Made by a program: the position numbers and the translations under genes. Shown in pieces: positions 127 through 63,547 of a stretch of DNA of 64,000 bases (position 1 is its first letter; each line of letters opens with the position of its first letter). The notes under the pieces were generated by a model. It worked only from the letters and a program-made list of their open reading frames with translations, was not told where the DNA came from and searched no databases. The DNA is from an uncultured Anaerolineaceae bacterium (GTDB taxonomy: Bacteria > Chloroflexota > Anaerolineae > Anaerolineales > UBA11579). Location: assembly GCA_964371335.1 (NCBI GenBank), contig CAYJMC010000003.1:41962-105961 (forward strand), read 5' to 3'.

Positions 127-246
127 CTAGAACCCCTGATAGATCCAAAGAGGGCTGGCATCGGCGGTCATGATCAACAGCAGAACGGCGATCAGGCAGA
201 GCAGGATTGCGTAAAGATTTTCGCGGGAGAATAATTTTCTCAGCAT
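127..246 (-). CDS. 39-aa single-TM microprotein with aromatic C-terminal tail WIYQGF (DltX-like)
   Basis: Hand translation: MLRKLFSRENLYAILLCLIAVLLLIMTADASPLWIYQGF*. It has a basic N-terminus, one TM helix and a short tail. Its stop lies 3 nt before the TTG of the downstream membrane ORF. A TATAAT box lies at 256-261 on the minus strand. It is below the 60-aa track cutoff. Confidence 0.35.
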   Translation of the reverse strand: MLRKLFSRENLYAILLCLIAVLLLIMTADASPLWIYQGF

Positions 247-295
247 CGAGGCAAGATTATAAACGGCCAATATCCAAGGCTTCTACAATCAGCCT

Positions 296-402
296 TGCCG
301 TCTTTGCGAGCCCGCAATGCGGGCGAAGCAATCCCCAACCTCAACGTGCAAAAGGCTTGGGGATTGCTTCGTAAGGCTTTGCCATCCTCGCAAAGACGGA
401 CA
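296..402. repeat. Family A palindromic (dimeric) MITE/REP-like element
   Basis: Perfect 13-bp outer inverted repeat ccgtctttgcgag (298-310) / ctcgcaaagacgg (387-399). Perfect 14-bp inner inverted repeat cgaagcaatcccca (324-337) / tggggattgcttcg (358-371). The architecture matches 14921-15030. Confidence 0.8.
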
Positions 403-458
403 GGCGCGCCCCTTCTAAGTTGGCGGTCGGCCGCTGGACGTTTTTGTATAATTACACC

Positions 459-1340
459 GTGAATCCGTTTCTCGCCCGTCTCGCTAACCCGCGCCCCATC
501 ATCCTCGATGGCGCCACCGGCACCGAACTCGAGCGCCGCGGCGCGGATACCAGCACGCCGATCTGGTCGGCCATGGCGCTGTTGGACGCGCCGGAGATTG
601 TCGAGCAGGTACACCGCGACTATCTGGATGCAGGCGCCGAAGTCATCATCACCAACACCTTCCGCACGCACCGCTGCAATCTGGAAAAGCTCGGCATGGG
701 CGACGAGGCGGCCCGGCTCACCACGCTGGCCGTCTCCATTGCTCAAAAAGCCATGCGTGCAAGCGGCAGGCAAGCCTGGGTAGCCGGTTCCATGGCGCCG
801 CTAGAAGATAGCTACTCCACCGCCAAACCATCCTCGCGCCAAGAATATCTCCGCGCGCACACTGAGATGGCGCGCAACCTGGCTGCCGCGAGTGTCGATC
901 TGCTGCTGATCGAAACGATGAAAGATATCGCCGAAGCGGAAGCGGCCGCCGAGGCGGCCAGCGCCACTGGGCTGCCCTTTGGGGTCAGCTTCATCTGTAA
1001 GCCCGATGGGAATTTGCTCTCGGGAGAAATGATTGCCGATGCGGTAAAAACCGTCGAGCCGCATGGTCCAGCTTTCTTTGGGATCAACTGCACCCCCGCG
1101 CCCACACTCCACGTCGCGCTAAAAGAACTGCGTGCCGTCACCCGGCTGCCGATTGCTGTTTATGCCAACTCCGGCCACACCGACGATTACCAAACATGGG
1201 GCGAGACCGAGGCCACGCAGCCCGCCGCCTATTGCCAGTTTGCCGAGCTTTGGATCAAACTCGGCGCGCACCTGGTGGGCGGATGCTGTGGCACGCGGCC
1301 GGAACACATCCAAGCCATCGCCCACGCTGTTAAAGCCTGA
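459..1340 (+). CDS. mmuM: homocysteine S-methyltransferase
   Basis: Track ORF 420-1340. ILDGATGTELERRG, INCTPAP and a C-terminal GGCCGTRPEHI motif are typical of the Hcy S-methyltransferase domain. The likely start is GTG 459 (VNPFLARL...), 6 nt after TATAAT at 447-452. The TTG at 420 lies inside the repeat element. Confidence 0.85.
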   Translation: MNPFLARLANPRPIILDGATGTELERRGADTSTPIWSAMALLDAPEIVEQVHRDYLDAGAEVIITNTFRTHRCNLEKLGMGDEAARLTTLAVSIAQKAMRASGRQAWVAGSMAPLEDSYSTAKPSSRQEYLRAHTEMARNLAAASVDLLLIETMKDIAEAEAAAEAASATGLPFGVSFICKPDGNLLSGEMIADAVKTVEPHGPAFFGINCTPAPTLHVALKELRAVTRLPIAVYANSGHTDDYQTWGETEATQPAAYCQFAELWIKLGAHLVGGCCGTRPEHIQAIAHAVKA

Positions 1341-3685: not shown

Positions 3686-6355
3686 TTATCCCTTTGTAAA
3701 TTTCCTCTTCCATTCCCACAATTTATTCAGCGCTTCAATTGGCGAGAGGCCTTCGATATCCAGCCCCTTCAGTTCGTCCACCAGCGGGCTGCTCTCGGGG
3801 AACAAGGCCGCTTGCTTGGCGGCCAGGCCGCCGGTATCCGCATTTCGTCCCGAGCTCGCTTCCAACTCCTTCAAGATCTCCTGCGCTCGCTGCAGCACCG
3901 GCCGCGGCAGCCCGGCCAACTGGCCCACGTGAATGCCATACGAACGATCTGCCCCGCCGGGGATGATCTTGTGCAGGAAAACAACATTGCCAGCGGCTTC
4001 GCTGACTGCGACGTTGTAATTGCGCACACCGGGCAGTTGCACGGCCAATTGAGTCAACTCGTGATAATGCGTGGCGAACAGCGTGCGGGCGCGCAACTTG
4101 GGATGGTTATGGATGTATTCGACAACCGCCCAGGCGATGGAAAGCCCGTCATAAGTGCTGGTGCCGCGTCCGATCTCGTCGAGGATCAACAGGCTGCGCG
4201 GCGTGGCATGGTGCAGAATGTTAGCGGTTTCCACCATTTCCACCATAAACGTGGACTGCCCAGCATGGATTTCATCTTGGGCGCCGATGCGGGTGAAGAT
4301 ACGGTCCACCAGGCCGATGCGTGCGCTGGCGGCGGGCACGAAGCCGCCCATCTGCGCCATCAGCACGATTAGCGCCACCTGGCGTAAATAGGTGGATTTG
4401 CCGCTCATGTTCGGCCCGGTGATCAGGCGGACACATTCGCCTGATTCGAATTGAGTGTCGTTGGGCACGAAGCGCGCCTGCCCGGGCAGCAACCGCTCCA
4501 CCACAGGGTGGCGCCCCTCACGTATATCGAGTACGGTGCCATCTTCGAGTTCCGGGCGCGTGTAGCCATTGAGCGCTGCCACTTCTGCGAGCGAGGCCAG
4601 CACATCCAGCATCGCCAGGGCACGTGCAGAGGCCAGCATGGTCGCGGCAGTTTTCGCCAACTCGGCGCAAACCTGCTTGAACAAGCGCGTTTCCACTTCA
4701 AGGATTCGCTCCTCGGCGTTCAACACTTGCGCCTCAACTTCTTTCATCTCGGGCGTGATATAGCGTTCGGCGTTCACCAAAGTTTGCTTGCGAATGTAAT
4801 CTGAGGGCAGGCCAGCATCTTTGGCTTTGGTCACCTCGATGTAATAGCCGTGCACCTTATTGAAGCCCACCTTCAATGTCTTGATGCCCGTGCGCGCCCG
4901 TTCGGCCGTTTCGAGATTGGCAATCCACTGGCGCGCTTGTTTCGTGGATTCCAACACTTCGTCGAGCTCGCTCGAATACCCATTTCGAACGATCCCAATG
5001 TGACCCAGTACCGCGGGCGGGTCATCGGCGATGGCGGTTTGCAGCAGCTTCAATTCTCCCGAGCAAGGAGATAAGCCGGCGATGAGATTCTGGAGTCGAG
5101 GCTTTAGCCGGTTTTCTCGAGCACCGGCTAAAGGCGGGATTGCTTCGTCGACCTTCGGCCTCCTCGCAACTGCGGAAAGCAAGCTTTCCTTGGCCTCGAC
5201 TCCGTTTAGAAGAGCGATCACCGCCGGAATGGCTTCCAGCGTTTCTCGGATCGCCACCAAATCGCGCGGCTGGGCGCTGCCGCCCAATACCCGGTTGGCC
5301 AGCCGCTCCAGATCGCCCAGCGGCTTGAGGGCGGCGCGCAGCTCGGCGCGCCGCAGACCATCTGCGTGGAAAAAGGTCACGCCGTCCTGGCGCTGGCGGA
5401 TTTTGCCCAATTCCAACAGCGGCTTGCTTACCCATTGGCGCAGCATGCGCCGCCCCATCGGCGTCACGCAAAGTTCCAGCACATGCAACAGCGACCCTTG
5501 TACTCCACCGCGCAACGTTTCGGTGAGCTCCAGGTTGCGCCGCGCTTCGCCGTCTAATGTCATAAACTCGGCAAGACTGTATGAGTGCAAACTGGTTAAC
5601 AAGTTTAAAGTTGAAGGTTGGGTTTCCTGCAGATACTGCAGCAGCGCGCCCGCCGCCTGCATGGCGAGCGGTTTGTCTGTCAACCCATAAGCCTTCAGGC
5701 TGGAGGTTTTGAAATGCGCCAGGAGAGCTTCTCTGCAGCGGCCGGGCTCGAAGCGCCAGGCCGTCCACGCAGTGGCATGGCCTGGTAGATTCTCGAACCC
5801 TGGTGTTTTGTCAGGATGAAGGATTTCTGCCGGCGCCAGTCGCTGGATTTCTGCGCGCAAGGCTGCAGCGTTTTCCAATTCGGCGGCGGCAAACTCGCCG
5901 GTGGTCACGTCGGCGTAAGCCAAACCGGCTTTGGCATCCTCCAGCACCACCGCGGCTAGATAATTGTTGGCATCGCCAGGCAGCAGGCCGGGTTCGACCA
6001 CAGTGCCGGGAGTGACAATGCGCACCACCTCACGGGGCATCAGGCCCTTCACTGGCTCCTCAGCCACCTGCTCGCAGATGGCCACATGGTGGCCGCGTTC
6101 GATCAACTTAGCAAGGTAATTTTCCGCCGCGTGGAAGGGAACTCCAGCCATCGGCACCCGAACGCCCTTGGCCACGTTGCGCGAAGTGAGCACAATGTCC
6201 AGTTCGCCGGCCACTAGCTCGGCATCGGCATCGAAAGTCTCGTAGAAATCGCCTAAGCGAAAGAACAAAATCGCCTGCGGGTATTGGCGCTTGATGTCCA
6301 GATATTGCTGGCGAACGGGACTGATCCGATCATCGATGGCGGTGTCAGAGGCCAT
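3686..6355 (-). CDS. mutS: DNA mismatch repair protein MutS
   Basis: N-terminal mismatch-binding region (FFRLGDFYETF), Walker A GPNMSGKST, and conserved DEIGRGTSTYDG and ATHYHEL segments. At 889 aa it includes the repeat-derived insert at 5092-5203. Confidence 0.97.
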   Translation of the reverse strand: MASDTAIDDRISPVRQQYLDIKRQYPQAILFFRLGDFYETFDADAELVAGELDIVLTSRNVAKGVRVPMAGVPFHAAENYLAKLIERGHHVAICEQVAEEPVKGLMPREVVRIVTPGTVVEPGLLPGDANNYLAAVVLEDAKAGLAYADVTTGEFAAAELENAAALRAEIQRLAPAEILHPDKTPGFENLPGHATAWTAWRFEPGRCREALLAHFKTSSLKAYGLTDKPLAMQAAGALLQYLQETQPSTLNLLTSLHSYSLAEFMTLDGEARRNLELTETLRGGVQGSLLHVLELCVTPMGRRMLRQWVSKPLLELGKIRQRQDGVTFFHADGLRRAELRAALKPLGDLERLANRVLGGSAQPRDLVAIRETLEAIPAVIALLNGVEAKESLLSAVARRPKVDEAIPPLAGARENRLKPRLQNLIAGLSPCSGELKLLQTAIADDPPAVLGHIGIVRNGYSSELDEVLESTKQARQWIANLETAERARTGIKTLKVGFNKVHGYYIEVTKAKDAGLPSDYIRKQTLVNAERYITPEMKEVEAQVLNAEERILEVETRLFKQVCAELAKTAATMLASARALAMLDVLASLAEVAALNGYTRPELEDGTVLDIREGRHPVVERLLPGQARFVPNDTQFESGECVRLITGPNMSGKSTYLRQVALIVLMAQMGGFVPAASARIGLVDRIFTRIGAQDEIHAGQSTFMVEMVETANILHHATPRSLLILDEIGRGTSTYDGLSIAWAVVEYIHNHPKLRARTLFATHYHELTQLAVQLPGVRNYNVAVSEAAGNVVFLHKIIPGGADRSYGIHVGQLAGLPRPVLQRAQEILKELEASSGRNADTGGLAAKQAALFPESSPLVDELKGLDIEGLSPIEALNKLWEWKRKFTKG
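5092..5203. repeat. Family A monomer embedded in frame inside mutS
   Basis: Terminal inverted repeats ggagtcgaggc / gcctcgactcc, an internal hairpin tagccgg/ccggcta, and the core gattgcttcgtcg-N-tcctcgcaactgcggaaagcaagctt. It aligns along its whole length with the intergenic copy at 17649-17765. Confidence 0.7.
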
Positions 6356-14920: not shown

Positions 14921-15030
14921 GCCTTTGCGAGGGCGTGAAACGCCAGAAGCAATCCCCAACACGGCCCGGCAAATCAACTTGGGGATTGCTTCGTCGGCCT
15001 CATTTCATTCGGCCATCCTCGCAAAAACGG
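14921..15030. repeat. Family A palindromic (dimeric) element
   Basis: Outer inverted repeat tttgcgagg (14924-14932) / cctcgcaaa (15017-15025). Inner inverted repeat gaagcaatcccca / tggggattgcttc. It is homologous to 296-402. Confidence 0.8.
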
Positions 15031-17607: not shown

Positions 17608-17640
17608 GACGTCCGACGTCCCACATCCAAAGTCCAAAAG
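17608..17640. repeat. low-complexity GTCC-type periodic repeat
   Basis: gacgtccgacgtcccacatccaaagtccaaaag, directly before the family A monomer. Confidence 0.55.
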
Positions 17641-17648
17641 CCCAAACC

Positions 17649-17765
17649 GGAGTCGAGGTTTTAGCTGGAAAGGGAAACTGGCTTAAGAATTGATTGCTTC
17701 GTCGCCTCGCTAGCGCTCATCTCCTCGCAAATGCGGAAAAGCAAGCTTCACCTTGGCTTCGACTC
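17649..17765. repeat. Family A monomer (intergenic reference copy)
   Basis: ggagtcgaggttttagctgg...attgcttcgtcg...tcctcgcaaatgcggaaaagcaagcttcaccttggcttcgactc. It is collinear with the copy inside mutS. Confidence 0.75.
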
Positions 17766-24544: not shown

Positions 24545-24973
24545 ATGAAGATCCTCGCCATCGATCCCGGTGAAGTGCGCATCGGGCTGGCCATTAGCGA
24601 CCCGACCGGCACTATCGCCCGCCCTCTGCAAATCCTCATGCATGAAGCGCGCGATAAAGACGTGGATCGCATCGCCGCCATCGCTAAAGAGCAAGGCGCC
24701 GAGATGATCGTGGTCGGCCATTCGCTCACCGAGCACGGTCGCCCCACGCGCACAGGCCGCAAAGCCGCGCAGATCGCCACCGCGCTGCGCGGCACCACCG
24801 GCCTGGAGGTCGAACTTTTCGAGGAAAGTTTCACCACCCAAGATGTACGACTGGCTCGTTTAGAGAGCGGCATGAAAAAGAAGAAACGCCGCGCGCCCCT
24901 GGACGCGGAAGCCGCGGCAAGGATCTTGCAAGCGTACTTGGATGAAAGAAAGCAAGGTTACTTGATTAATTGA
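24545..24973 (+). CDS. ruvX: Holliday junction resolvase-like RuvX (YqgF)
   Basis: MKILAIDPGEVRIGLAISD start, 142 aa, typical of the YqgF family. Confidence 0.9.
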   Translation: MKILAIDPGEVRIGLAISDPTGTIARPLQILMHEARDKDVDRIAAIAKEQGAEMIVVGHSLTEHGRPTRTGRKAAQIATALRGTTGLEVELFEESFTTQDVRLARLESGMKKKKRRAPLDAEAAARILQAYLDERKQGYLIN

Positions 24974-24993
24974 TTAACCGATTAGCAGATTGG
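24962..24993. repeat. GATTAAY 8-nt periodic array
   Basis: ttgattaattgattaaccgattagcagattgg. It overlaps the ruvX stop codon and fills the spacer to mltG. Confidence 0.65.
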
Positions 24994-34695: not shown

Positions 34696-34860
34696 CTTGC
34701 CATTCTGAGCAGCCTTCCCGCGTTTGCGGGAAGACGTCGCGAAGAATCCATCCTTATCGTCGCTTTCAAATCAAGCTCGATTTTTAAATTGACGTATCGG
34801 TGGATTCTTCGCGGGCGCACGGCTGGCTACGCCCGCCTTAGCTGGCTCAGAATGGCAAAA
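34696..34860. repeat. Family B palindromic element
   Basis: cttgccattctgagcagcc...gtcgcgaagaatccatcc...ggtggattcttcgcg...gctcagaatggcaaaag. The right terminus contains the ATG of the next gene. Confidence 0.75.
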
Positions 34861-36500: not shown

Positions 36501-37480
36501 ATGGATATCCTCATCACCGGTTCAGTCGCTTACGACTACCTGATGACCTTCCCGGGGTTCTTCAAAGAACACCTACTCGCCGAGCACCTCGAAAAAATCA
36601 GCCTTTCCTTCCTGGTCGAAACCCTCATCCGCCGGCGCGGCGGAATTGCCCCCAACATCGCCTACACTCTGGCGCTGCTGGGCGCCCGACCTCGCGTGCT
36701 GGCTACCGTGGGCGAAGACTTCGAGGAATATCGCGCCTGGCTGGAAGAGCAAGGTGTGGACACGCTCAATATCAAAGTGGTGCCGGGCAAATACACCGCC
36801 TCCTACTTCTGCACCACCGACAAAACCAACGCGCAAGTCGCCAGCTTCTATCCAGGCGCCATGGCGCACGCCATCGAACTATCGCTGCACGAGCTGGCCG
36901 GAGGCAAGCCCGACCTGGTCGTCGTTTCTCCTAATGAGCCGGCCGCCATGGAGCGCACCATTCGGGAATGTAAAGAACTGGGTATCGCCTATATCTACGA
37001 CCCCAGCCAGCAGATCATCCGCTTCGAAGGTGACATATTGCGCCGCGGTGTAGAAGGCGCCCGCGCCCTTTTTGTCAACGAATACGAGTTCGAACTGATC
37101 AAAGACAAGACACGCATGAGCGTTGAGGACATCATGTCGCTGCTCGAGTTCATGGTGGTCACCCTGGGGCCGCAGGGCGCCACCGTTTATCACAACGGCC
37201 TGCAGACCTCAGTAGAAGCCGTGCCCACCGACAACATCGTCGACCCTACCGGCGGCGGGGATGCGTTCCGCGGCGGCTTTCTTACCGGTTACCGGCTGGG
37301 CCTGGATTGGCAGACCTGCGCCCGCCTGGGATCGCTGGCTGCCACCTTCTGCCTGGAAAATGACGGCCCGCAGGCGCATCACTTCACCCGCGAAGAATTC
37401 CTGGCGCGCTACCGCCAGTTCTACGACGACGGCGGGAAACTCAATGTCCTTCTGCAAAGTCAGCAACCTTCTATTGCCAC

Positions 37481-37484
<4 letters not shown>
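36501..37484 (+). CDS. PfkB-family carbohydrate/nucleoside kinase (adenosine kinase candidate)
   Basis: MDILITGSVAYDY start, GGIAPNIAY, and the C-terminal DPTGGGDAFRGG motif. It lies directly upstream of ahcY. Confidence 0.8.
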
Positions 37485-38813
<1,329 letters not shown>

Positions 38814-41671: not shown

Positions 41672-41695
41672 GATTGCTTGAATAGTGGAACGTGG

Positions 41696-41887
41696 TTATT
41701 CCGAACACTTGGTTTTAGGTATTCCTCGCTGAGATTGCCTCGGCTTTGATACTGATTTCCTACCCGCTCGGAAGGACAAAAAGGCATGAGTGCAATGGCG
41801 GTTGGATTCGTTGGTGGCGCATGCGGTTCAGCCTTGCGAAGGTTGGATTTATATCAAGCTTCTCTTCAAGTCCAACCTTCGCAAGGC
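41696..41887. repeat. Composite family C + D element
   Basis: C part: ttattccgaacac...ggtattcctcgctgagatt...acccgctcggaaggacaaa. D part: perfect 17-bp hairpin gccttgcgaaggttgga (41831-41847) / tccaaccttcgcaaggc (41871-41887). The layout matches 59003-59204. Confidence 0.75.
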
Positions 41888-42435: not shown

Positions 42436-42495
42436 TTCTCCCCTCAGTATACAACGCTAGAGGTTGCAGCACATTTAACTTGGCGTGCGGGACTC

Positions 42496-42583
42496 GATTA
42501 TTCCGAAGACCGCGCTTTAGGGATTCCTCGCTGAGATCGTCTTTGTTTTGGTGAGGGTCTTCATACCCGCTCGGAATGACAAA
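42496..42583. repeat. Family C element
   Basis: gattattccgaagaccgcgctttagggattcctcgctgagatcg...tcatacccgctcggaatgacaaa. Confidence 0.7.
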
Positions 42584-42639: not shown

Positions 42640-43833
42640 TTATATCTCGGCGGGTTCCAGGTCCTCGAGAATTTCGGCGGGGGCAAGCTCAGCGTCTTCT
42701 TCGCCGGCGAACATGGCGGGCTGCGCGGTCAGCACCTTTTCGCGGATCTGGCTTTCGATGGCCTCCGCCAGATCGGGGTGGTCGCGCAAATATTCCTTGG
42801 CGGATTCGCGTCCCTGGCCCAGGCGCTCGTCCCCGTAGTTGTAGAAGGAACCGCGCTTGACCACCAGTTCGTACAGCACGGCGAGATCCAGCAGGTCGCC
42901 GCTCTTGGAAATGCCTTCGTTGTACATGATATCGAACTCGGCAGTCTGGAATGGCGGCGCCACTTTGTTCTTCACCACGCGCACTCGCGTGCGGTTGCCG
43001 ACTACGTCTTGCCCGGTCTTGATGGATTGAATGCGGCGCACGTCCAGGCGCACGGAGGAATAAAACTTGAGCGCCATGCCGCCGGTTGTCGTCTCCGGGT
43101 TGCCGAACATGACGCCGATCTTCTGGCGCAACTGGTTGGTGAAGACCACCGCGGTGTTGGTTTGCTTGATGGCGCCGGAGAGTTTGCGCAGTGCCTGCGA
43201 CATCAGGCGGGCCTGCATGCCCATGGTGGCATCTCCCATGTCGCCTTCAATCTCGGAGCGGGGCACCAGCGCCGCCACCGAGTCGACCACCACCAGGTCC
43301 ACCGCGCCGGAGCGCACCAGCGCCTCGGCGATCTCCAAGGCTTGCTCGCCGGTGTCGGGCTGGGCGATGAGCAGGGTGTCCAAGTTCACGCCGCAGCGCG
43401 AGGCGTAGGTGGGATCGAGGGCGTGCTCCATGTCGATGAAGGCGGCGGTGCCGCCGCGCTTCTGCACTTCGGCCACCAGGTGCTGGCAGAGGGTGGTCTT
43501 GCCGGAGGATTCGGGGCCGTAGATCTCGGTCACCCGCCCGCGGGGAAGGCCGCCGACGCCCAGCGCCAGGTCCAGCGAAATGGAGCCGGTGGAGATGGCC
43601 TCCACGGCCATGCCTTTGGCTTCGCCCAGGCGCATGATGGCACCTTCGCCGTAGCGCTTCATGATGTCGTCCAGGGTGCGCTGCAGGGTCTTGAGGCGCG
43701 CATCTTGTTCAGGGTTATGCCCATTGGAGGAGGTTGCTTCGTCGGCTGAATGCCTCCTCGCAACTGCGGGAAGCGTAGCTTCCCTTGTCTCCGGGGCGAC
43801 TTTGAGATCGGTTATTTTGACTTTTTTCGCCAT
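42640..43833 (-). CDS. recA: recombinase RecA with repeat-derived N-terminal extension
   Basis: Walker [10 protein letters not shown], plus [21 protein letters not shown] and [20 protein letters not shown] 43833 has GGAGA 9 nt upstream, and there is no alternative in-frame start before residue 58. Confidence 0.97.
43732..43793. repeat. Family A core copy inside the recA coding region (N-terminal extension)
   Basis: ggttgcttcgtcggctgaatgcctcctcgcaactgcgggaagcgtagcttcccttgtctccgg. It has the same core and the same orientation as the mutS and 17649 copies. Confidence 0.6.
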
Positions 43834-43856
43834 TGGTCTATCTCCTATGCCATGCT

Positions 43857-43944
43857 GGGAATTGCTTCGTCGTGGTTGCTACGCAACGCATCCCTCGCAA
43901 CTACAGAAGGCAAGATTGCCACGCAACTCGGCCCTCCTTGCCTC
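43857..43944. repeat. Family A-like copy in the recA 5' untranslated region
   Basis: gggaattgcttcgtcgtggttgctacgcaacgcatccctcgcaactacagaaggcaagattgcc... Confidence 0.55.
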
Positions 43945-43958
43945 CGAACTAGTGTTCT
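43945..43958 (-). promoter_or_regulatory. Cheo-type LexA (SOS) box upstream of recA
   Basis: cGAACtagtGTTCt is a perfect GAAC-N4-GTTC palindrome, located just downstream of the predicted recA -10 box. Confidence 0.6.
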
Positions 43959-43970
43959 AATATAGAGTAA

Positions 43971-43999
43971 ATAATAGAACATATATGCTAGTTTGTCAA
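43971..43999 (-). promoter_or_regulatory. recA promoter
   Basis: On the minus strand: TTGACA (43999-43994), a 17-nt spacer, then TATTAT (43976-43971). Confidence 0.55.
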
Positions 44000-44094
44000 G
44001 CAAGGAGGACATTAGGTTTTAGGGCGGCTAGTTGCGCTGAGGGCCAAACGGTCATAATATAAGATCGTTGCGTAACCCGAGCTAGGAGGAAAAG

Positions 44095-57272: not shown

Positions 57273-59000
<1,728 letters not shown>

Positions 59001-59002
59001 TC

Positions 59003-59204
59003 AGTTCTTCCGAAGACGGCGTAATTGGGATTCCTCGCTGAGATTACTTTTACTTTGATGCGGATTTCCAGACCCGCTCGGAATGACAATAAGCGGCTTG
59101 CGCCGTTTATTGTGGGCGACGCATGCGTCGCCCTACGGCGATTCAACCTTGCGAAGGTTGGATATAAATTCTCGTTGTCTTCAAGTCCAACCTTCGCAAG
59201 GTTT
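59003..59204. repeat. Composite family C + D element
   Basis: C part: ttcttccgaagacggcgtaattgggattcctcgctgagatt...gacccgctcggaatgacaa. A 20-bp perfect palindrome gggcgacgcatgcgtcgccc lies at 59115-59134. D part: 18-bp hairpin aaccttgcgaaggttgga / tccaaccttcgcaaggtt. Confidence 0.75.
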
Positions 59205-62866: not shown

Positions 62867-63478
62867 ATGTTTTTCAAACGACGAAAGCAAGAAACTAATT
62901 CCAACCCGCCCTTCCTGATCGTTGGCCTGGGCAATCCCGGGCCCGAGTACAAGTTCAACAGGCATAACATCGGTTTTATGGTGGCTGATGAGTTGGCGCG
63001 AAAACTGGACGCCGAATTCAGCCGCGTTCAATCCAATGCACTGGTTGCCCAAGCTCGCCGCAGCCAACAGCGCATCATCTTAGCGAAACCGCGCACGTAT
63101 GTGAATCGGTCAGGTTTAGCGGTAGGCGCGCTGCTGCGCTTCTACAAAGCGCCCCAGGAAAAGCTACTAGTCATCTACGACGATGTGGATCTGCCCTTCG
63201 ATACGCTGCGTTTGCGCAGCGAAGGCGGGTCGGCGGGCCACAATGGCATGAGGTCGATCATCGAAAACTTGGGCAGCCAGGAGTTTGCGCGGCTGCGGGT
63301 GGGCGTCGGACGCCCGAAAGGCCGCATGCGGACGCCGGATCACGTGCTTCAGGATTTTTCAAAATCGGAACAAGAGGAGTTGATCTTCGTTTTGCAAAGG
63401 GCAACAGAAGCTGCACTGACTTTTATCGATGAGGGGATCGTTGCGGCAATGAATCATTACAACAAGGTGGGAGACTAG
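62867..63478 (+). CDS. pth: peptidyl-tRNA hydrolase
   Basis: LIVGLGNPGPEY, HNIGF, YVNRSG and GHNGMRS are conserved Pth motifs. Confidence 0.95.
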   Translation: MFFKRRKQETNSNPPFLIVGLGNPGPEYKFNRHNIGFMVADELARKLDAEFSRVQSNALVAQARRSQQRIILAKPRTYVNRSGLAVGALLRFYKAPQEKLLVIYDDVDLPFDTLRLRSEGGSAGHNGMRSIIENLGSQEFARLRVGVGRPKGRMRTPDHVLQDFSKSEQEELIFVLQRATEAALTFIDEGIVAAMNHYNKVGD

Positions 63479-63490
63479 AGCTTGGAGATT

Positions 63491-63532
63491 AGTAACTGGT
63501 AATTAATAACTGGTAATTAGTAACTGGTTATT
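63491..63532. repeat. tandem 14-nt AT-rich repeat x3
   Basis: agtaactggtaatt / aataactggtaatt / agtaactggttatt, in the pth-mfd spacer. Confidence 0.75.
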
Positions 63533-63547
63533 CGTTATTGAGGATTC

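What the first reader, a model, noticed from the sequence alone, without database searches (positions are those of the whole stretch)
43732..43833. RecA carries an N-terminal extension of about 35 aa partly encoded by the same repeat, in the same frame as in mutS
The canonical RecA N-terminal helix begins around [30 protein letters not shown]. Upstream of it, the only start with an RBS is ATG 43833, and no ATG/GTG/TTG occurs in frame in between. This adds [41 protein letters not shown]. Nucleotides 43732-43793 are a family A core. The encoded [16 protein letters not shown] parallels LSAVARRPKVDEAIPP in the mutS insert, with the same element strand and reading frame. Two core recombination/repair proteins thus carry peptides from one mobile repeat family.
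Basis: seen in the sequence. Interest (0 to 1): 0.7.

Follow-up and report, generated by a model that had tools for sequence, protein, structure and literature searches.

The report
Hairpin repeat inserted in-frame in RecA
A 51-60 base copy of a dispersed two-hairpin DNA repeat sits in-frame in the floppy N-terminal tail of this Anaerolineales bacterium's RecA, and again in a MutS loop; this adds another example to a known kind of tolerated "selfish DNA inside genes".

Summary
recA (42640-43833, minus strand) starts at ATG 43833 and has no in-frame ATG/GTG/TTG before M58. A repeat copy (43729-43788) lies in-frame, and the same repeat is read in the same strand and frame in mutS (5134-5193).

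One correction is needed. About 22 of the 39 extra N-terminal residues ([15 protein letters not shown]...SNGHNP) are shared by related Anaerolineales RecAs and are under purifying selection. Only 17-20 residues ([19 protein letters not shown]) come from a clean 51-60 nt insertion, which is absent from six related recA loci.

AlphaFold2 gives residues 1-39 no secondary structure at low confidence. The mutS copy is exactly 60 nt, nested in a palindrome in a length-variable domain III loop.

The repeat is a variant of the NTS/SRM (CGTC-REP-like) hairpin repeats. In relatives, sister units flank a small GIY-YIG gene directly downstream of recA. That protein is 44% identical to the NTS-flanked GIY-YIG protein I take to be Neisseria gonorrhoeae SsnA.

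In-frame palindromic repeats in proteins are already described, notably in DNA repair genes (Rickettsia RPEs, intragenic REPs). This is most likely a tolerated passenger insertion: a new member of a known kind, of moderate interest.

The parts
42640..43833 (-). recA CDS, 397 aa
   Evidence: ORF list. Pfam RecA 1.6e-134 and RecA_C. PDB RecA matches. Closest homologues are Anaerolineales RecA.
43789..43833 (-). Codons 1-15 ([15 protein letters not shown]): the ancestral part of the N-terminal tail, translated
   Evidence: Shared by six related loci. Variable columns at codon positions 1/2/3 = 4/2/13; 126 synonymous vs 45 nonsynonymous pairwise codon differences.
43729..43788 (-). Family-A repeat element inserted in-frame. 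60 nt match the full element; the minimal gap against relatives is 51-54 nt (43738-43788). Encodes [19 protein letters not shown](SS).
   Evidence: Clean gap in DNA alignments against L001, L002, L004, L005/6, L008, L009. Near-identical to L008 UTR copy 1. Core hit.
43768..43784 (-). Hairpin 1 of the element: GGGAAGC-TAC-GCTTCCC, followed by GCAG (43764-43767)
   Evidence: RNA fold -24.8 kcal/mol, z = -3.95. A 7-bp stem in 47 of 56 distinct copies, with five perfectly complementary stem variants.
43734..43763 (-). Hairpin 2 / conserved core: TTGCGAGGA-[GGC ATTCA GCC]-GACGAAGCAA
43711..43728 (-). SNGHNP: the ancestral tail segment downstream of the insert, followed by canonical helix alphaA (residues 41-61)
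   Evidence: Conserved in relatives. AlphaFold2 helix 41-61.
43841..43846 (-). Shine-Dalgarno AGGAGA, 7 nt before the ATG
   Evidence: Read from the sequence. Conserved in relatives.
43850..43940 (-). Second family-A copy (91 nt, expanded hairpin 1) in the recA 5'UTR, between the LexA-like box and the SD
   Evidence: Absent in L001, L002, L004, L009. Shorter copies lie at the same site in L005/6, L008 and L024.
43946..43957 (-). GAAC-N4-GTTC LexA (Cheo-type) box-like site; the assignment rests on my own knowledge of the consensus
   Evidence: Read from the sequence. Conserved in all relatives aligned.
43971..43999 (-). Sigma-70-like promoter TTGACA-17-TATTAT (11 of 12 matches)
42520..42580 (-). 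Solo family-B unit GTCATTCCGAGCG...GCGAGGAATCCC downstream of recA. It sits where relatives carry a GIY-YIG (SsnA-like) gene flanked by such units.
   Evidence: (D1).
3686..6355 (-). mutS CDS, 889 aa
5134..5193 (-). Family-A element, exactly 60 nt, in-frame in mutS (AKESLLSAVARRPKVDEAIP), with no target-site duplication
   Evidence: DNA alignment against L012 (palindrome only) and L011 (empty site). Protein alignment.
5092..5203 (-). Outer palindrome GGAGTCGAGG/CTTTAGCCGG...CCGGCTAAAGCCTCGACTCC, which hosts the family-A copy. It lies in the MutS domain III loop, between Taq MutS residues ~367 and ~375.
17640..17762 (-). Intergenic copy of the same composite (family A nested in the outer palindrome, with the same flanks as in mutS)
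304..393 (.). Inverted pair of short units (CCGTCTTTGCGAG...GAAGCAATCCCC), intergenic
14925..15024 (.). Second inverted pair of short units, intergenic

Best explanation
Shown: a ~60-nt dispersed two-hairpin repeat (family A: CAAGG-hairpin 1-G(C/T)AG-TTGCGAGGA-variable hairpin 2-GACGAAGCAATCCCC) was inserted in-frame and without a stop codon in two places. One is the length-variable N-terminal tail of RecA, after codon 15. The other is a length-variable loop of MutS domain III. Neither insertion is present in closely related species. Inferred: translation starts at ATG 43833, because the upstream tail codons evolve as coding sequence and no other start exists. The element would therefore be translated as about 17-20 residues in a low-confidence, probably disordered segment ahead of helix alphaA. 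Inferred: the insert is a tolerated passenger. Selection would have kept only insertions that preserve the frame and land at permissive sites. Inferred: the repeat is a diverged member of the NTS/SRM (CGTC-REP-like) hairpin-repeat superfamily. Sister units (GTCATTYCGAGCGAGG-hairpin-CGACGAGRAATTCC) flank a small single-domain GIY-YIG gene immediately downstream of recA in relatives. That protein is 44% identical to the NTS-flanked GIY-YIG protein of N. gonorrhoeae, which I take to be its SsnA. How such repeats spread is unknown. The junctions show no terminal inverted repeats and no target-site duplication, which fits a hairpin/ssDNA-based route rather than a classical cut-and-paste MITE.
For: Insertion: DNA alignments give a clean 51-54 nt gap in six related recA loci and a 60-nt gap in mutS. 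Three independent assemblies carry the recA insert. Translation: conserved SD; tail codons 1-15 vary at positions 1/2/3 = 4/2/13; no in-frame ATG/GTG/TTG before M58, and M58 would remove most of helix alphaA. Permissive sites: RecA residues 1-39 have pLDDT 30-37 and no secondary structure. N-tail length varies from -3 to +27 aa in relatives. The MutS loop also carries unrelated inserts in P0125/P0128, P0122 (+13 aa) and P0196. Repeat family: 7 core hits against 0.01 expected. There are 43 further distinct copies in metagenomes. Hairpin 1 is kept through compensatory changes. SsnA link: GIY-YIG Pfam hit at 3.7e-14; inverted flanking units; BLASTP 44% identity, E = 8e-22, to a 94-aa N. gonorrhoeae ORF surrounded by 12 NTS copies; graded motif alignment from NTS to family B to family A. 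Precedent: PMC3733652, PMC10969869, PMC11893778.
Against: There is no direct evidence of translation, and no proteomics. The AlphaFold2 model is of moderate quality (mean pLDDT 59.8, 35-sequence alignment), so 'disordered' is soft. Family A does not match the published SRM search pattern, and its 5' tag is CGCAG rather than CGTCA. No ssnA homologue lies in the 64-kb window. None of the 43 metagenomic copies is convincingly inside a gene, so two intragenic copies, both in repair genes within one window, look more than random. Neutrality is assumed, not tested. Only one substitution exists among strains (P22T, in a 2.5x-coverage contig).
Confidence: 0.75

Rival explanations
1. The element is not translated. 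RecA would start downstream, at M58 or at a non-canonical codon, so the repeat lies in the 5'UTR. This is what Di Nocera et al. suspect for many 'N-terminal' REPs.
For: One gene caller produced a 340-aa RecA starting at M58 (P0007). PMC3733652 warns that many REPs at ORF N-termini are really extragenic. Most family-A copies do lie in 5' leaders.
Against: P0007's short call is caused by a run of N in that contig. Codons 1-15 upstream of the insert show third-position-biased variation and a conserved SD in all relatives. There is no in-frame ATG/GTG/TTG between M1 and M58. M58 would delete most of helix alphaA, which aligns with E. coli residues 7-22.
Confidence: 0.05
2. The insertions are adaptive rather than neutral. 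Three routes are conceivable. The RecA or MutS peptide could modulate activity, giving mutator or hyper-recombination tuning as Di Nocera et al. speculate. The hairpins 45-105 nt into the mRNA, together with the 5'UTR copy, could tune recA translation or mRNA stability. The DNA hairpins could mark recA and mutS as substrates of an Ssn-type ssDNA nuclease that restricts allelic replacement.
For: Both intragenic copies in the window are in recombination/repair genes, while 0 of 43 metagenomic copies are clearly intragenic. PMC3733652 reports REPs enriched in replication and repair genes. The recA locus carries repeat copies in the UTR and the CDS, and in relatives an ssnA-like gene sits next to recA. 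In Neisseria, NTS/SsnA modulates RecA-dependent transformation (PMC11893778). The recA copy retains strong hairpins (z = -3.95).
Against: The insert is confined to one species-level lineage. It sits in a low-confidence, probably disordered, length-variable tail. The one strain difference breaks a hairpin-1 base pair. The sample is two genes in a window that was picked out because of them.
Confidence: 0.15
3. The feature is an assembly or chimera artefact, or the recA/mutS resemblance reflects a shared protein motif rather than a DNA repeat.
For: The source is a metagenome, and repeats can cause misassembly.
Against: The same insert occurs in three assemblies from different samples. The mutS insert also occurs in an NCBI MAG (L010). 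Identity is at the DNA level, and most copies are intergenic.
Confidence: 0.02

Closest known systems
Rickettsia palindromic elements (RPEs) and intragenic GTAG/CGTC REPs (Ogata et al. 2000; Claverie & Ogata 2003; Di Nocera et al. 2013, PMC3733652; review PMC10969869)
   Same: These are short palindromic dispersed repeats found inside ORFs, in-frame and stop-free, and absent from orthologues. They encode about 20-30 aa, often at termini or loops, and are notably frequent in DNA replication and repair genes (uvrABCD, recBCD, polA, dnaE2). REPs are also reported nested in 'target' palindromes, as in the mutS copy here.
   Different: The host is an Anaerolineales (Chloroflexota) bacterium. The decorated proteins are RecA and MutS; mutS is not mentioned in PMC3733652, and I saw no recA entry there. 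The element is a two-hairpin composite with a CGCAG tag rather than a clean GTAG or CGTC tag. RPE-1 elements are longer (~150 bp).
NTS / Ssn-related motifs (SRM) with SsnA GIY-YIG ssDNA nucleases (Chenal et al. 2025, PMC11893778)
   Same: These are oriented hairpin repeats with a conserved non-palindromic 5' tag (CGTCATTCC...GGAATC), in many copies. They flank a small single-domain GIY-YIG gene as inverted repeats. The relatives' GIY-YIG protein is 44% identical to the NTS-flanked N. gonorrhoeae GIY-YIG protein that I take to be SsnA. Family-B units share the GTCATTCC/GGAATCC tags.
   Different: Family A and family B do not match the published SRM degenerate pattern. The stems are interrupted by a purine-rich internal loop and a hypervariable inner hairpin. 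Family A has an extra 5' hairpin. NTS copies are rarely intragenic (2% in N. meningitidis). No ssnA lies in this window, and cleavage was not tested.
REP/BIME elements mobilised by RAYT (IS200/IS605-type Y1 transposases)
   Same: Imperfect palindromes with a short 5' tag (G(C/T)AG here), occurrence as inverted pairs (304/364 and 14925/14986), and no target-site duplication.
   Different: The tag is mostly GCAG, not GTAG. No RAYT was seen next to any copy, and the gene actually found flanked by sister units is a GIY-YIG nuclease.
Classical bacterial MITEs (for example Correia, ERIC, Nezha)
   Same: Small, non-autonomous, dispersed, and occasionally fused in-frame to ORFs.
   Different: There are no terminal inverted repeats matching an IS and no target-site duplication at the recA or mutS junctions.

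Membership tests
Intragenic palindromic repeat insertions (RPE / intragenic REP type) | Repeat copy lies inside a bona fide ORF, with length a multiple of 3 and no stop codon | tested here: met
   recA gap is 51-54 nt (element 60 nt). mutS gap is exactly 60 nt. Both reading frames stay open.
Intragenic palindromic repeat insertions (RPE / intragenic REP type) | Insert is absent from orthologues of related species, with the flanks colinear | tested here: met
   Six recA loci and the L011/L012 mutS loci lack it.
Intragenic palindromic repeat insertions (RPE / intragenic REP type) | The same repeat family also occurs in intergenic DNA of the genome | tested here: met
   Seven of nine units in the window are intergenic. 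There are 43 further copies in metagenomes.
Intragenic palindromic repeat insertions (RPE / intragenic REP type) | Insert is expressed as part of the protein | not testable with these tools
   Translation is inferred from coding-type conservation upstream and the lack of another start. No proteomics is available.
Ssn-related motif (SRM/NTS) repeats | Matches the published degenerate pattern HGTCWYN(0-2)YYVSBRHN(0-5)WNVSBRGN(0-2)RNCYNB | tested here: not met
   There is one hit in the window (34709-34736), and none at the family A or family B copies or in L001-L009.
Ssn-related motif (SRM/NTS) repeats | Oriented hairpin with a conserved 5' CGTCA-type tag and ATTCC/GGAAT-type arms | tested here: inconclusive
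   Family B and the L005/L024 units have GTCATTCC...GGAATCC. The short units at 304/364 have a CCGTC tag. Family A has CCGCAG and TTGC/GCAA arms.
Ssn-related motif (SRM/NTS) repeats | Units flank an ssnA (cd10448-type GIY-YIG) gene as inverted repeats | tested here: met
   This holds for family-B-like units in L001/L004, L005 and L024. The GIY-YIG protein is 44% identical (E = 8e-22) to the NTS-flanked N. gonorrhoeae ORF. It is not shown for family A itself, and CDD assignment was not run.
Ssn-related motif (SRM/NTS) repeats | Cleaved as ssDNA, in a strand-specific way, by the cognate Ssn nuclease | not testable with these tools
   This needs an enzyme assay.
GTAG-REP / RAYT (REPtron) | Terminal GTAG tetranucleotide next to the stem-loop | tested here: inconclusive
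   Among the window copies, GCAG occurs twice and GTAG and GCAT once each; the short units have GTCT, GTTT or GCCT. GYAG variants are allowed in PMC3733652.
GTAG-REP / RAYT (REPtron) | Association with a Y1 (IS200/IS605-type) transposase gene | not tested
   No systematic search was run. None was noticed beside the copies examined.
MITE | Terminal inverted repeats plus a target-site duplication | tested here: not met
   The junctions are GTCGAGG|CCAAGG...CCCGC|CTTTAGCC (mutS) and CCGGAG|ACAAGG...CCTCC|TCCAAT (recA). They show no duplication and no terminal inverted repeats.
RecA recombinase | RecA core and C-terminal domains, with N-terminal helix alphaA | tested here: met
   PF00154 residues 48-309, PF21096 residues 312-367. 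PDB RecA E-values down to 1e-137. Predicted helix 41-61.

The most novel reading that the evidence does not exclude
The Ssn-type hairpin-repeat system may be functionally coupled to recombination genes in this Anaerolineales clade. An ssnA-like ssDNA nuclease gene sits directly downstream of the SOS-box-controlled recA in several species. Repeat copies occupy the recA 5'UTR between the LexA-like box and the SD in at least four lineages. In this species copies have entered the recA and mutS reading frames in the sense orientation. On this reading the intragenic hairpins would not be neutral. They would mark recA and mutS ssDNA, or their mRNAs, for Ssn-dependent cleavage or regulation, for example by restricting allelic replacement of recombination and mismatch-repair genes or by tuning their expression.
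Probability: 0.1. Interest if true: 0.7.

Novelty: new member of a known kind. Interest (0 to 1): 0.4.

Why it matters
RecA and MutS are among the most conserved proteins in bacteria, so a repeat-derived peptide in both shows how far selfish hairpin repeats can enter essential genes when they land in permissive, flexible segments. The case extends a pattern already noted for REPs and RPEs, namely enrichment in replication and repair genes, to Chloroflexota and to RecA and MutS themselves. It also ties the repeat to the recently described Ssn GIY-YIG ssDNA-nuclease/hairpin-repeat system, whose role outside Neisseria is unknown. There is a practical lesson as well. Gene callers mis-start this recA (P0007), and mechanical ORFs absorb the 5'UTR copies, so such repeats distort annotation of N-termini.

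Tried and rejected
- **Rfam.** A gathering-threshold scan of the whole window and an E-value scan of 43650-44050 found no RNA family at the element.
- **Published SRM pattern.** It does not hit family A or family B, so I do not file the element as an SRM sensu stricto.
- **Target-site motif.** The first junctions suggested insertion 3' of GGAG/GAGG. Upstream flanks of more than 40 further copies are heterogeneous (roughly RRGY), so I dropped this idea.
- **Other intragenic copies.** Six candidates among 43 metagenomic copies had long open frames on both sides. All look like spurious GC-rich ORFs, and the other copies lie in leaders or 3' regions. L016 (RimM-like) and L052 copies are upstream of the likely starts.
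- **Genome-collection scan of the core motif.** The pattern is too short: I estimate about 500 chance matches in 596 Gb. The broad phylum list is therefore only partly meaningful, and only the Anaerolineales hits share hairpin 1.
- **Literature search by sequence strings.** It found only unrelated primers. A search for RecA repeat insertions found nothing specific.
- **ssnA in the window.** tblastn with the GIY-YIG protein gave no hit in the window.
- **Selection test on insert codons.** It is impossible with these data: there is one difference among strains, in a 2.5x-coverage contig.
- **ORF 240-773(-) over the 304/364 pair.** I judged it spurious. The real gene is 420-1340(+), an S-methyltransferase-like protein.
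- **NCBIfam.** It has no model matching the GIY-YIG protein.
Full report
**1. What is in the sequence**

On the minus strand, ORF 42640-43833 encodes a 397-aa RecA. Pfam RecA covers residues 48-309 and RecA_C covers 312-367. Residue 46 aligns with E. coli RecA residue 7. The ATG at 43833 is the first start after an upstream stop and is preceded by AGGAGA with a 7-nt spacer. Between M1 and M58 the only in-frame near-cognate codons are ATA7, CTG50, CTG54 and ATC57.

Upstream lie a near-consensus promoter, TTGACA-17-TATTAT at 43999-43971, and a GAAC-N4-GTTC site at 43957-43946. From my own knowledge that site is the Gram-positive/Chloroflexi-type LexA box. A hairpin-plus-T-run terminator follows the stop codon. 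The tail is 39 aa longer than in E. coli.

**2. The repeat is real**

The core TTGCTTCG-N(8-30)-CTCGCAA occurs 7 times in the 64 kb against 0.01 expected. A looser scan finds nine units, of which seven are intergenic. The two inside genes are in recA (core 43734-43763) and mutS (core 5140-5169).

In the gene-sense orientation the full element reads: CAAGG, then hairpin 1 (GGRAAGC-loop-GCTTYCC), then G(C/T)AG, then TTGCGAGGA, then a hypervariable inner hairpin, then GACGAAGCAATCCCC.

The two-hairpin fold is predicted for the recA, mutS, L008 and L024 copies. Only the recA copy (-24.8 kcal/mol, z = -3.95) and the L024 copy (z = -4.19) stand clearly apart from shuffled controls; the mutS copy does not (z = -0.70).

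Across 56 distinct copies from the window, relatives and metagenomes, 47 have a 7-bp hairpin-1 stem. That stem comes in five perfectly complementary versions: GGAAAGC, GGAAGGC, GGGAAGC, GGTAAGC and GGAGAGC. The changes are compensatory, so the hairpin itself is conserved. No Rfam family matches.

**3. Comparison with relatives: the key result**

The closest RecAs are from Anaerolineales. Those at 86-93% identity (P0002-P0009, 374-382 aa) begin MA(K/R)KVKLTEIKVAPE, then 0-3 residues (P0008 also lacks SNGH), then [16 protein letters not shown]. Most of the 'extension' is therefore a clade feature that does not depend on the repeat.

DNA alignments of six such loci against the window show a clean 51-54 nt gap between GCCCCGGAG and TCCAATGGGCAT. 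All 60 nt at 43729-43788 match the full element. For example, they match L008 copy 1, CCAAGGAAAGCTTGCTTTCCGCAGTTGCGAGGAGGCATTCAGCCGACGAAGCAATCCCC. The exact right boundary cannot be fixed, because the 6-9 native bases there vary among relatives.

Two other assemblies of the same species (L003, L007; 99.7-99.8% identical) carry the insert. The 340-aa protein P0007 starting at M58 is an artefact of a run of N in L007.

Among 112 related cluster representatives the tail ranges from -3 to +27 aa relative to E. coli. Only the window's species reaches +39.

**4. Is it translated?**

Codons 1-15 upstream of the insert vary at codon positions 1/2/3 in 4/2/13 columns. Pairwise they show 126 synonymous against 45 nonsynonymous codon differences. 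That is the same pattern as the 29 codons after the insert (2/3/17; 126 vs 40), and the SD is conserved. The tail therefore evolves as protein.

With no alternative start, the ribosome must read through the element. This gives [19 protein letters not shown](SS). The conclusion is inferred, not observed.

**5. Likely effect on the proteins**

AlphaFold2 on the 35-sequence alignment gives pLDDT 30-37 and no secondary structure for residues 1-39. Helix alphaA is placed at 41-61. The model is only moderate (mean pLDDT 59.8). The insert thus lies ahead of the helix that contacts the neighbouring protomer, in a segment whose length already varies.

In MutS, typical relatives are 856-865 aa, while the window's protein is 889 aa. 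The extra residues fall between the segments that align with Taq MutS 333-367 and 375-454, which is a domain III loop.

At that loop, P0125 and P0128 carry only a palindrome, GTCGAGGCTTTAGCCGG...CCGGCTAAAGCCTCGA. The window, P0121 and P0122 have in addition exactly 60 nt of family A nested between GTCGAGG and CTTTAGCC, without a target-site duplication. P0122 has a further in-frame 39 nt inside hairpin 2. P0196 has an unrelated low-complexity insert at the same loop. The same nested composite, with the same flanks, recurs intergenically at about 17640-17762.

Both genes were therefore hit at permissive sites.

**6. Same frame**

The recA and mutS copies are in the sense orientation and the same relative frame. 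At least three frames are open across each copy. Agreement by chance is therefore about 1 in 6, which is suggestive only.

**7. What the repeat is**

In relatives L001/L004 (frameshifted copy), L005 and L024, a small single-domain GIY-YIG gene lies immediately downstream of recA. It is 113-115 aa where intact, with Pfam PF01541 at 3.7e-14. It is flanked by inverted hairpin units of the form GTCATTYCGAGCGAGG-hairpin-CGACGAGRAATTCC. At that position the window has only a solo unit (42520-42580).

Chenal et al. 2025 (PMC11893778) showed that Neisseria SsnA, a cd10448 GIY-YIG protein, is a site-specific ssDNA nuclease. Its cognate hairpin repeats are NTS (CGTCATTCCCGCGMAVGCGGGAATCYRG) and, in other phyla, 'SRM'. 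These repeats flank ssnA and occur in hundreds of copies.

The L005 protein hits N. gonorrhoeae chromosomes at a single place each; these records are filed as plasmids in the collection. The place is a 94-aa ORF surrounded by 12 NTS copies within 1.5 kb. I take that ORF to be ssnA on the strength of its NTS flanks. Pairwise BLASTP gives 44% identity and E = 8e-22.

Aligning the motifs gives a graded series. It runs from NTS, to the units flanking the GIY-YIG gene, to window family B, to the short units at 304/364 (CCGTCTTTGCGAG...GAAGCAATCCCC), and finally to family A (CCGCAGTTGCGAGG...CGAAGCAATCCCC). The stems TTTC/GAAA and TTGC/GCAA differ by a compensatory pair.

The published SRM search pattern does not match families A or B. 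I therefore call family A a diverged relative of SRM/CGTC-REP repeats, not a member sensu stricto. There are no terminal inverted repeats and no target-site duplication, so it is not a classical MITE. RAYT association was not tested.

**8. Where copies usually sit**

A metagenome scan for the family-A signature returned 52 loci and 43 distinct copies. None is convincingly internal to a gene. Several lie in the sense orientation a few to a few dozen codons upstream of likely start codons, that is, in 5' leaders.

The recA 5'UTR copy (43850-43940) fits this habit. Copies occupy the same UTR site in L005/6, L008 and L024 but not in L001, L002, L004 or L009. In L008 a second copy entered after recA codon 4 and brings an in-frame TAG. 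A diverged duplicate of SD-ATG-GCACG-AAAG follows it and appears to restore the gene.

**9. Comparison with what is known, and verdict**

In-frame palindromic repeats in proteins were described for Rickettsia (RPEs; Ogata 2000, cited in PMC10969869). Di Nocera et al. 2013 (PMC3733652) described them for GTAG and CGTC REPs. They note enrichment in replication and repair genes, frequent N-terminal positions, nesting in target palindromes and probable neutrality in flexible regions. They also speculate about mutator effects.

The present case is a new example in a new host clade, in RecA and MutS, with a two-hairpin variant element. Its sister units flank an SsnA-like nuclease gene.

The most likely mechanism is passenger insertion filtered by selection (confidence about 0.75). 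An adaptive or regulatory role is possible (about 0.15) and would be the interesting outcome. Overall this is a new member of a known kind, with interest of about 0.4.

Noticed in passing
window 43850-43940 (-): A 91-nt family-A copy sits in the recA 5'UTR, between the conserved LexA-like box and the SD. Copies occupy the same site in L005/6, L008 and L024 but not in L001, L002, L004 or L009. Their hairpin sequences differ far more than the flanking promoter does. Either the site has been hit repeatedly, or an old copy is turning over quickly.
   Followed up: partly
L008 200-420: In the closest relative's recA, one element lies in the UTR and a second lies after codon 4, where it brings an in-frame TAG. 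A diverged duplicate of SD-ATG-GCACG-AAAG (~26 nt) follows and seems to rescue the gene. This could be a long target duplication or a compensatory duplication. It rests on a single short Logan contig.
   Followed up: partly
L001 4188-4725; L005 4208-4719; L024 5537-6320; window 42520-42580: An SsnA-like GIY-YIG gene flanked by inverted hairpin units lies directly downstream of recA in four related loci; in L001 and L004 it is frameshifted. The window keeps only one solo unit there, and L002 has neither. The cassette therefore looks mobile or decaying, and the recA-ssnA adjacency may be worth testing for co-regulation.
   Followed up: partly
window 41676-41780, 42478-42582, 58985-59089; also 41823-41886 and 59138-59201: There are three copies of a ~105-nt repeat (D1, family B) and two copies of a 64-nt hairpin-containing repeat (D5) nearby. 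This suggests a larger composite repeat present at about 41.7 kb and about 59 kb.
   Followed up: no
window 34709-34736 (-), with inverted repeats 34682-34710/34845-34873 and 24360-24433/34740-34813: This is the only match to the published SRM pattern (CGTCTTCCCGCAAACGCGGGAAGGCTGC; 0.13 expected). It sits inside a region with 29-nt and 74-nt inverted repeats, so another hairpin-repeat family or a small mobile cassette may be present.
   Followed up: no
window 5092-5203 and 17640-17762; L010 mutS: Family A is nested at the same position of an outer ~20-bp-stem palindrome at two loci. The mutS of a 93%-identical relative (P0122) has 39 extra in-frame nt inside hairpin 2. The inner hairpin is therefore a hotspot for indels that keep the reading frame.
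   Followed up: partly
loci L013-L128: The core AGTTGCGAGG...CGAAGCAA, often preceded by GTCATTGCGAG, recurs in clearly non-random sets across phyla: several Flavobacterium species, Kamptonema, Campylobacter and Bradyrhizobium. However, I estimate about 500 chance matches in that collection. This may reflect the wide spread of SRM-like repeats.
   Followed up: partly
window 24937-24991, 37456-37532, 63469-63538: AT-rich oddities occur in an otherwise GC-rich window. One is TTGATTAACCGATTAACGGATTAATCGAT-type palindromes at two loci. The other is a 14-nt periodic array (TGGTAATTAGTAAC) near the window end.
   Followed up: no
P0208, P0220: Two related MutS proteins of ~1290 aa carry intein/LAGLIDADG-type Pfam domains (PF14528, PF14890). 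MutS in this group therefore also hosts inteins.
   Followed up: no
L007 ~2840 (P0007): A 10-N scaffold gap inside recA codons 6-8 made the gene caller start RecA at M58. The result is a database protein that wrongly suggests a short RecA for this species.
   Followed up: yes
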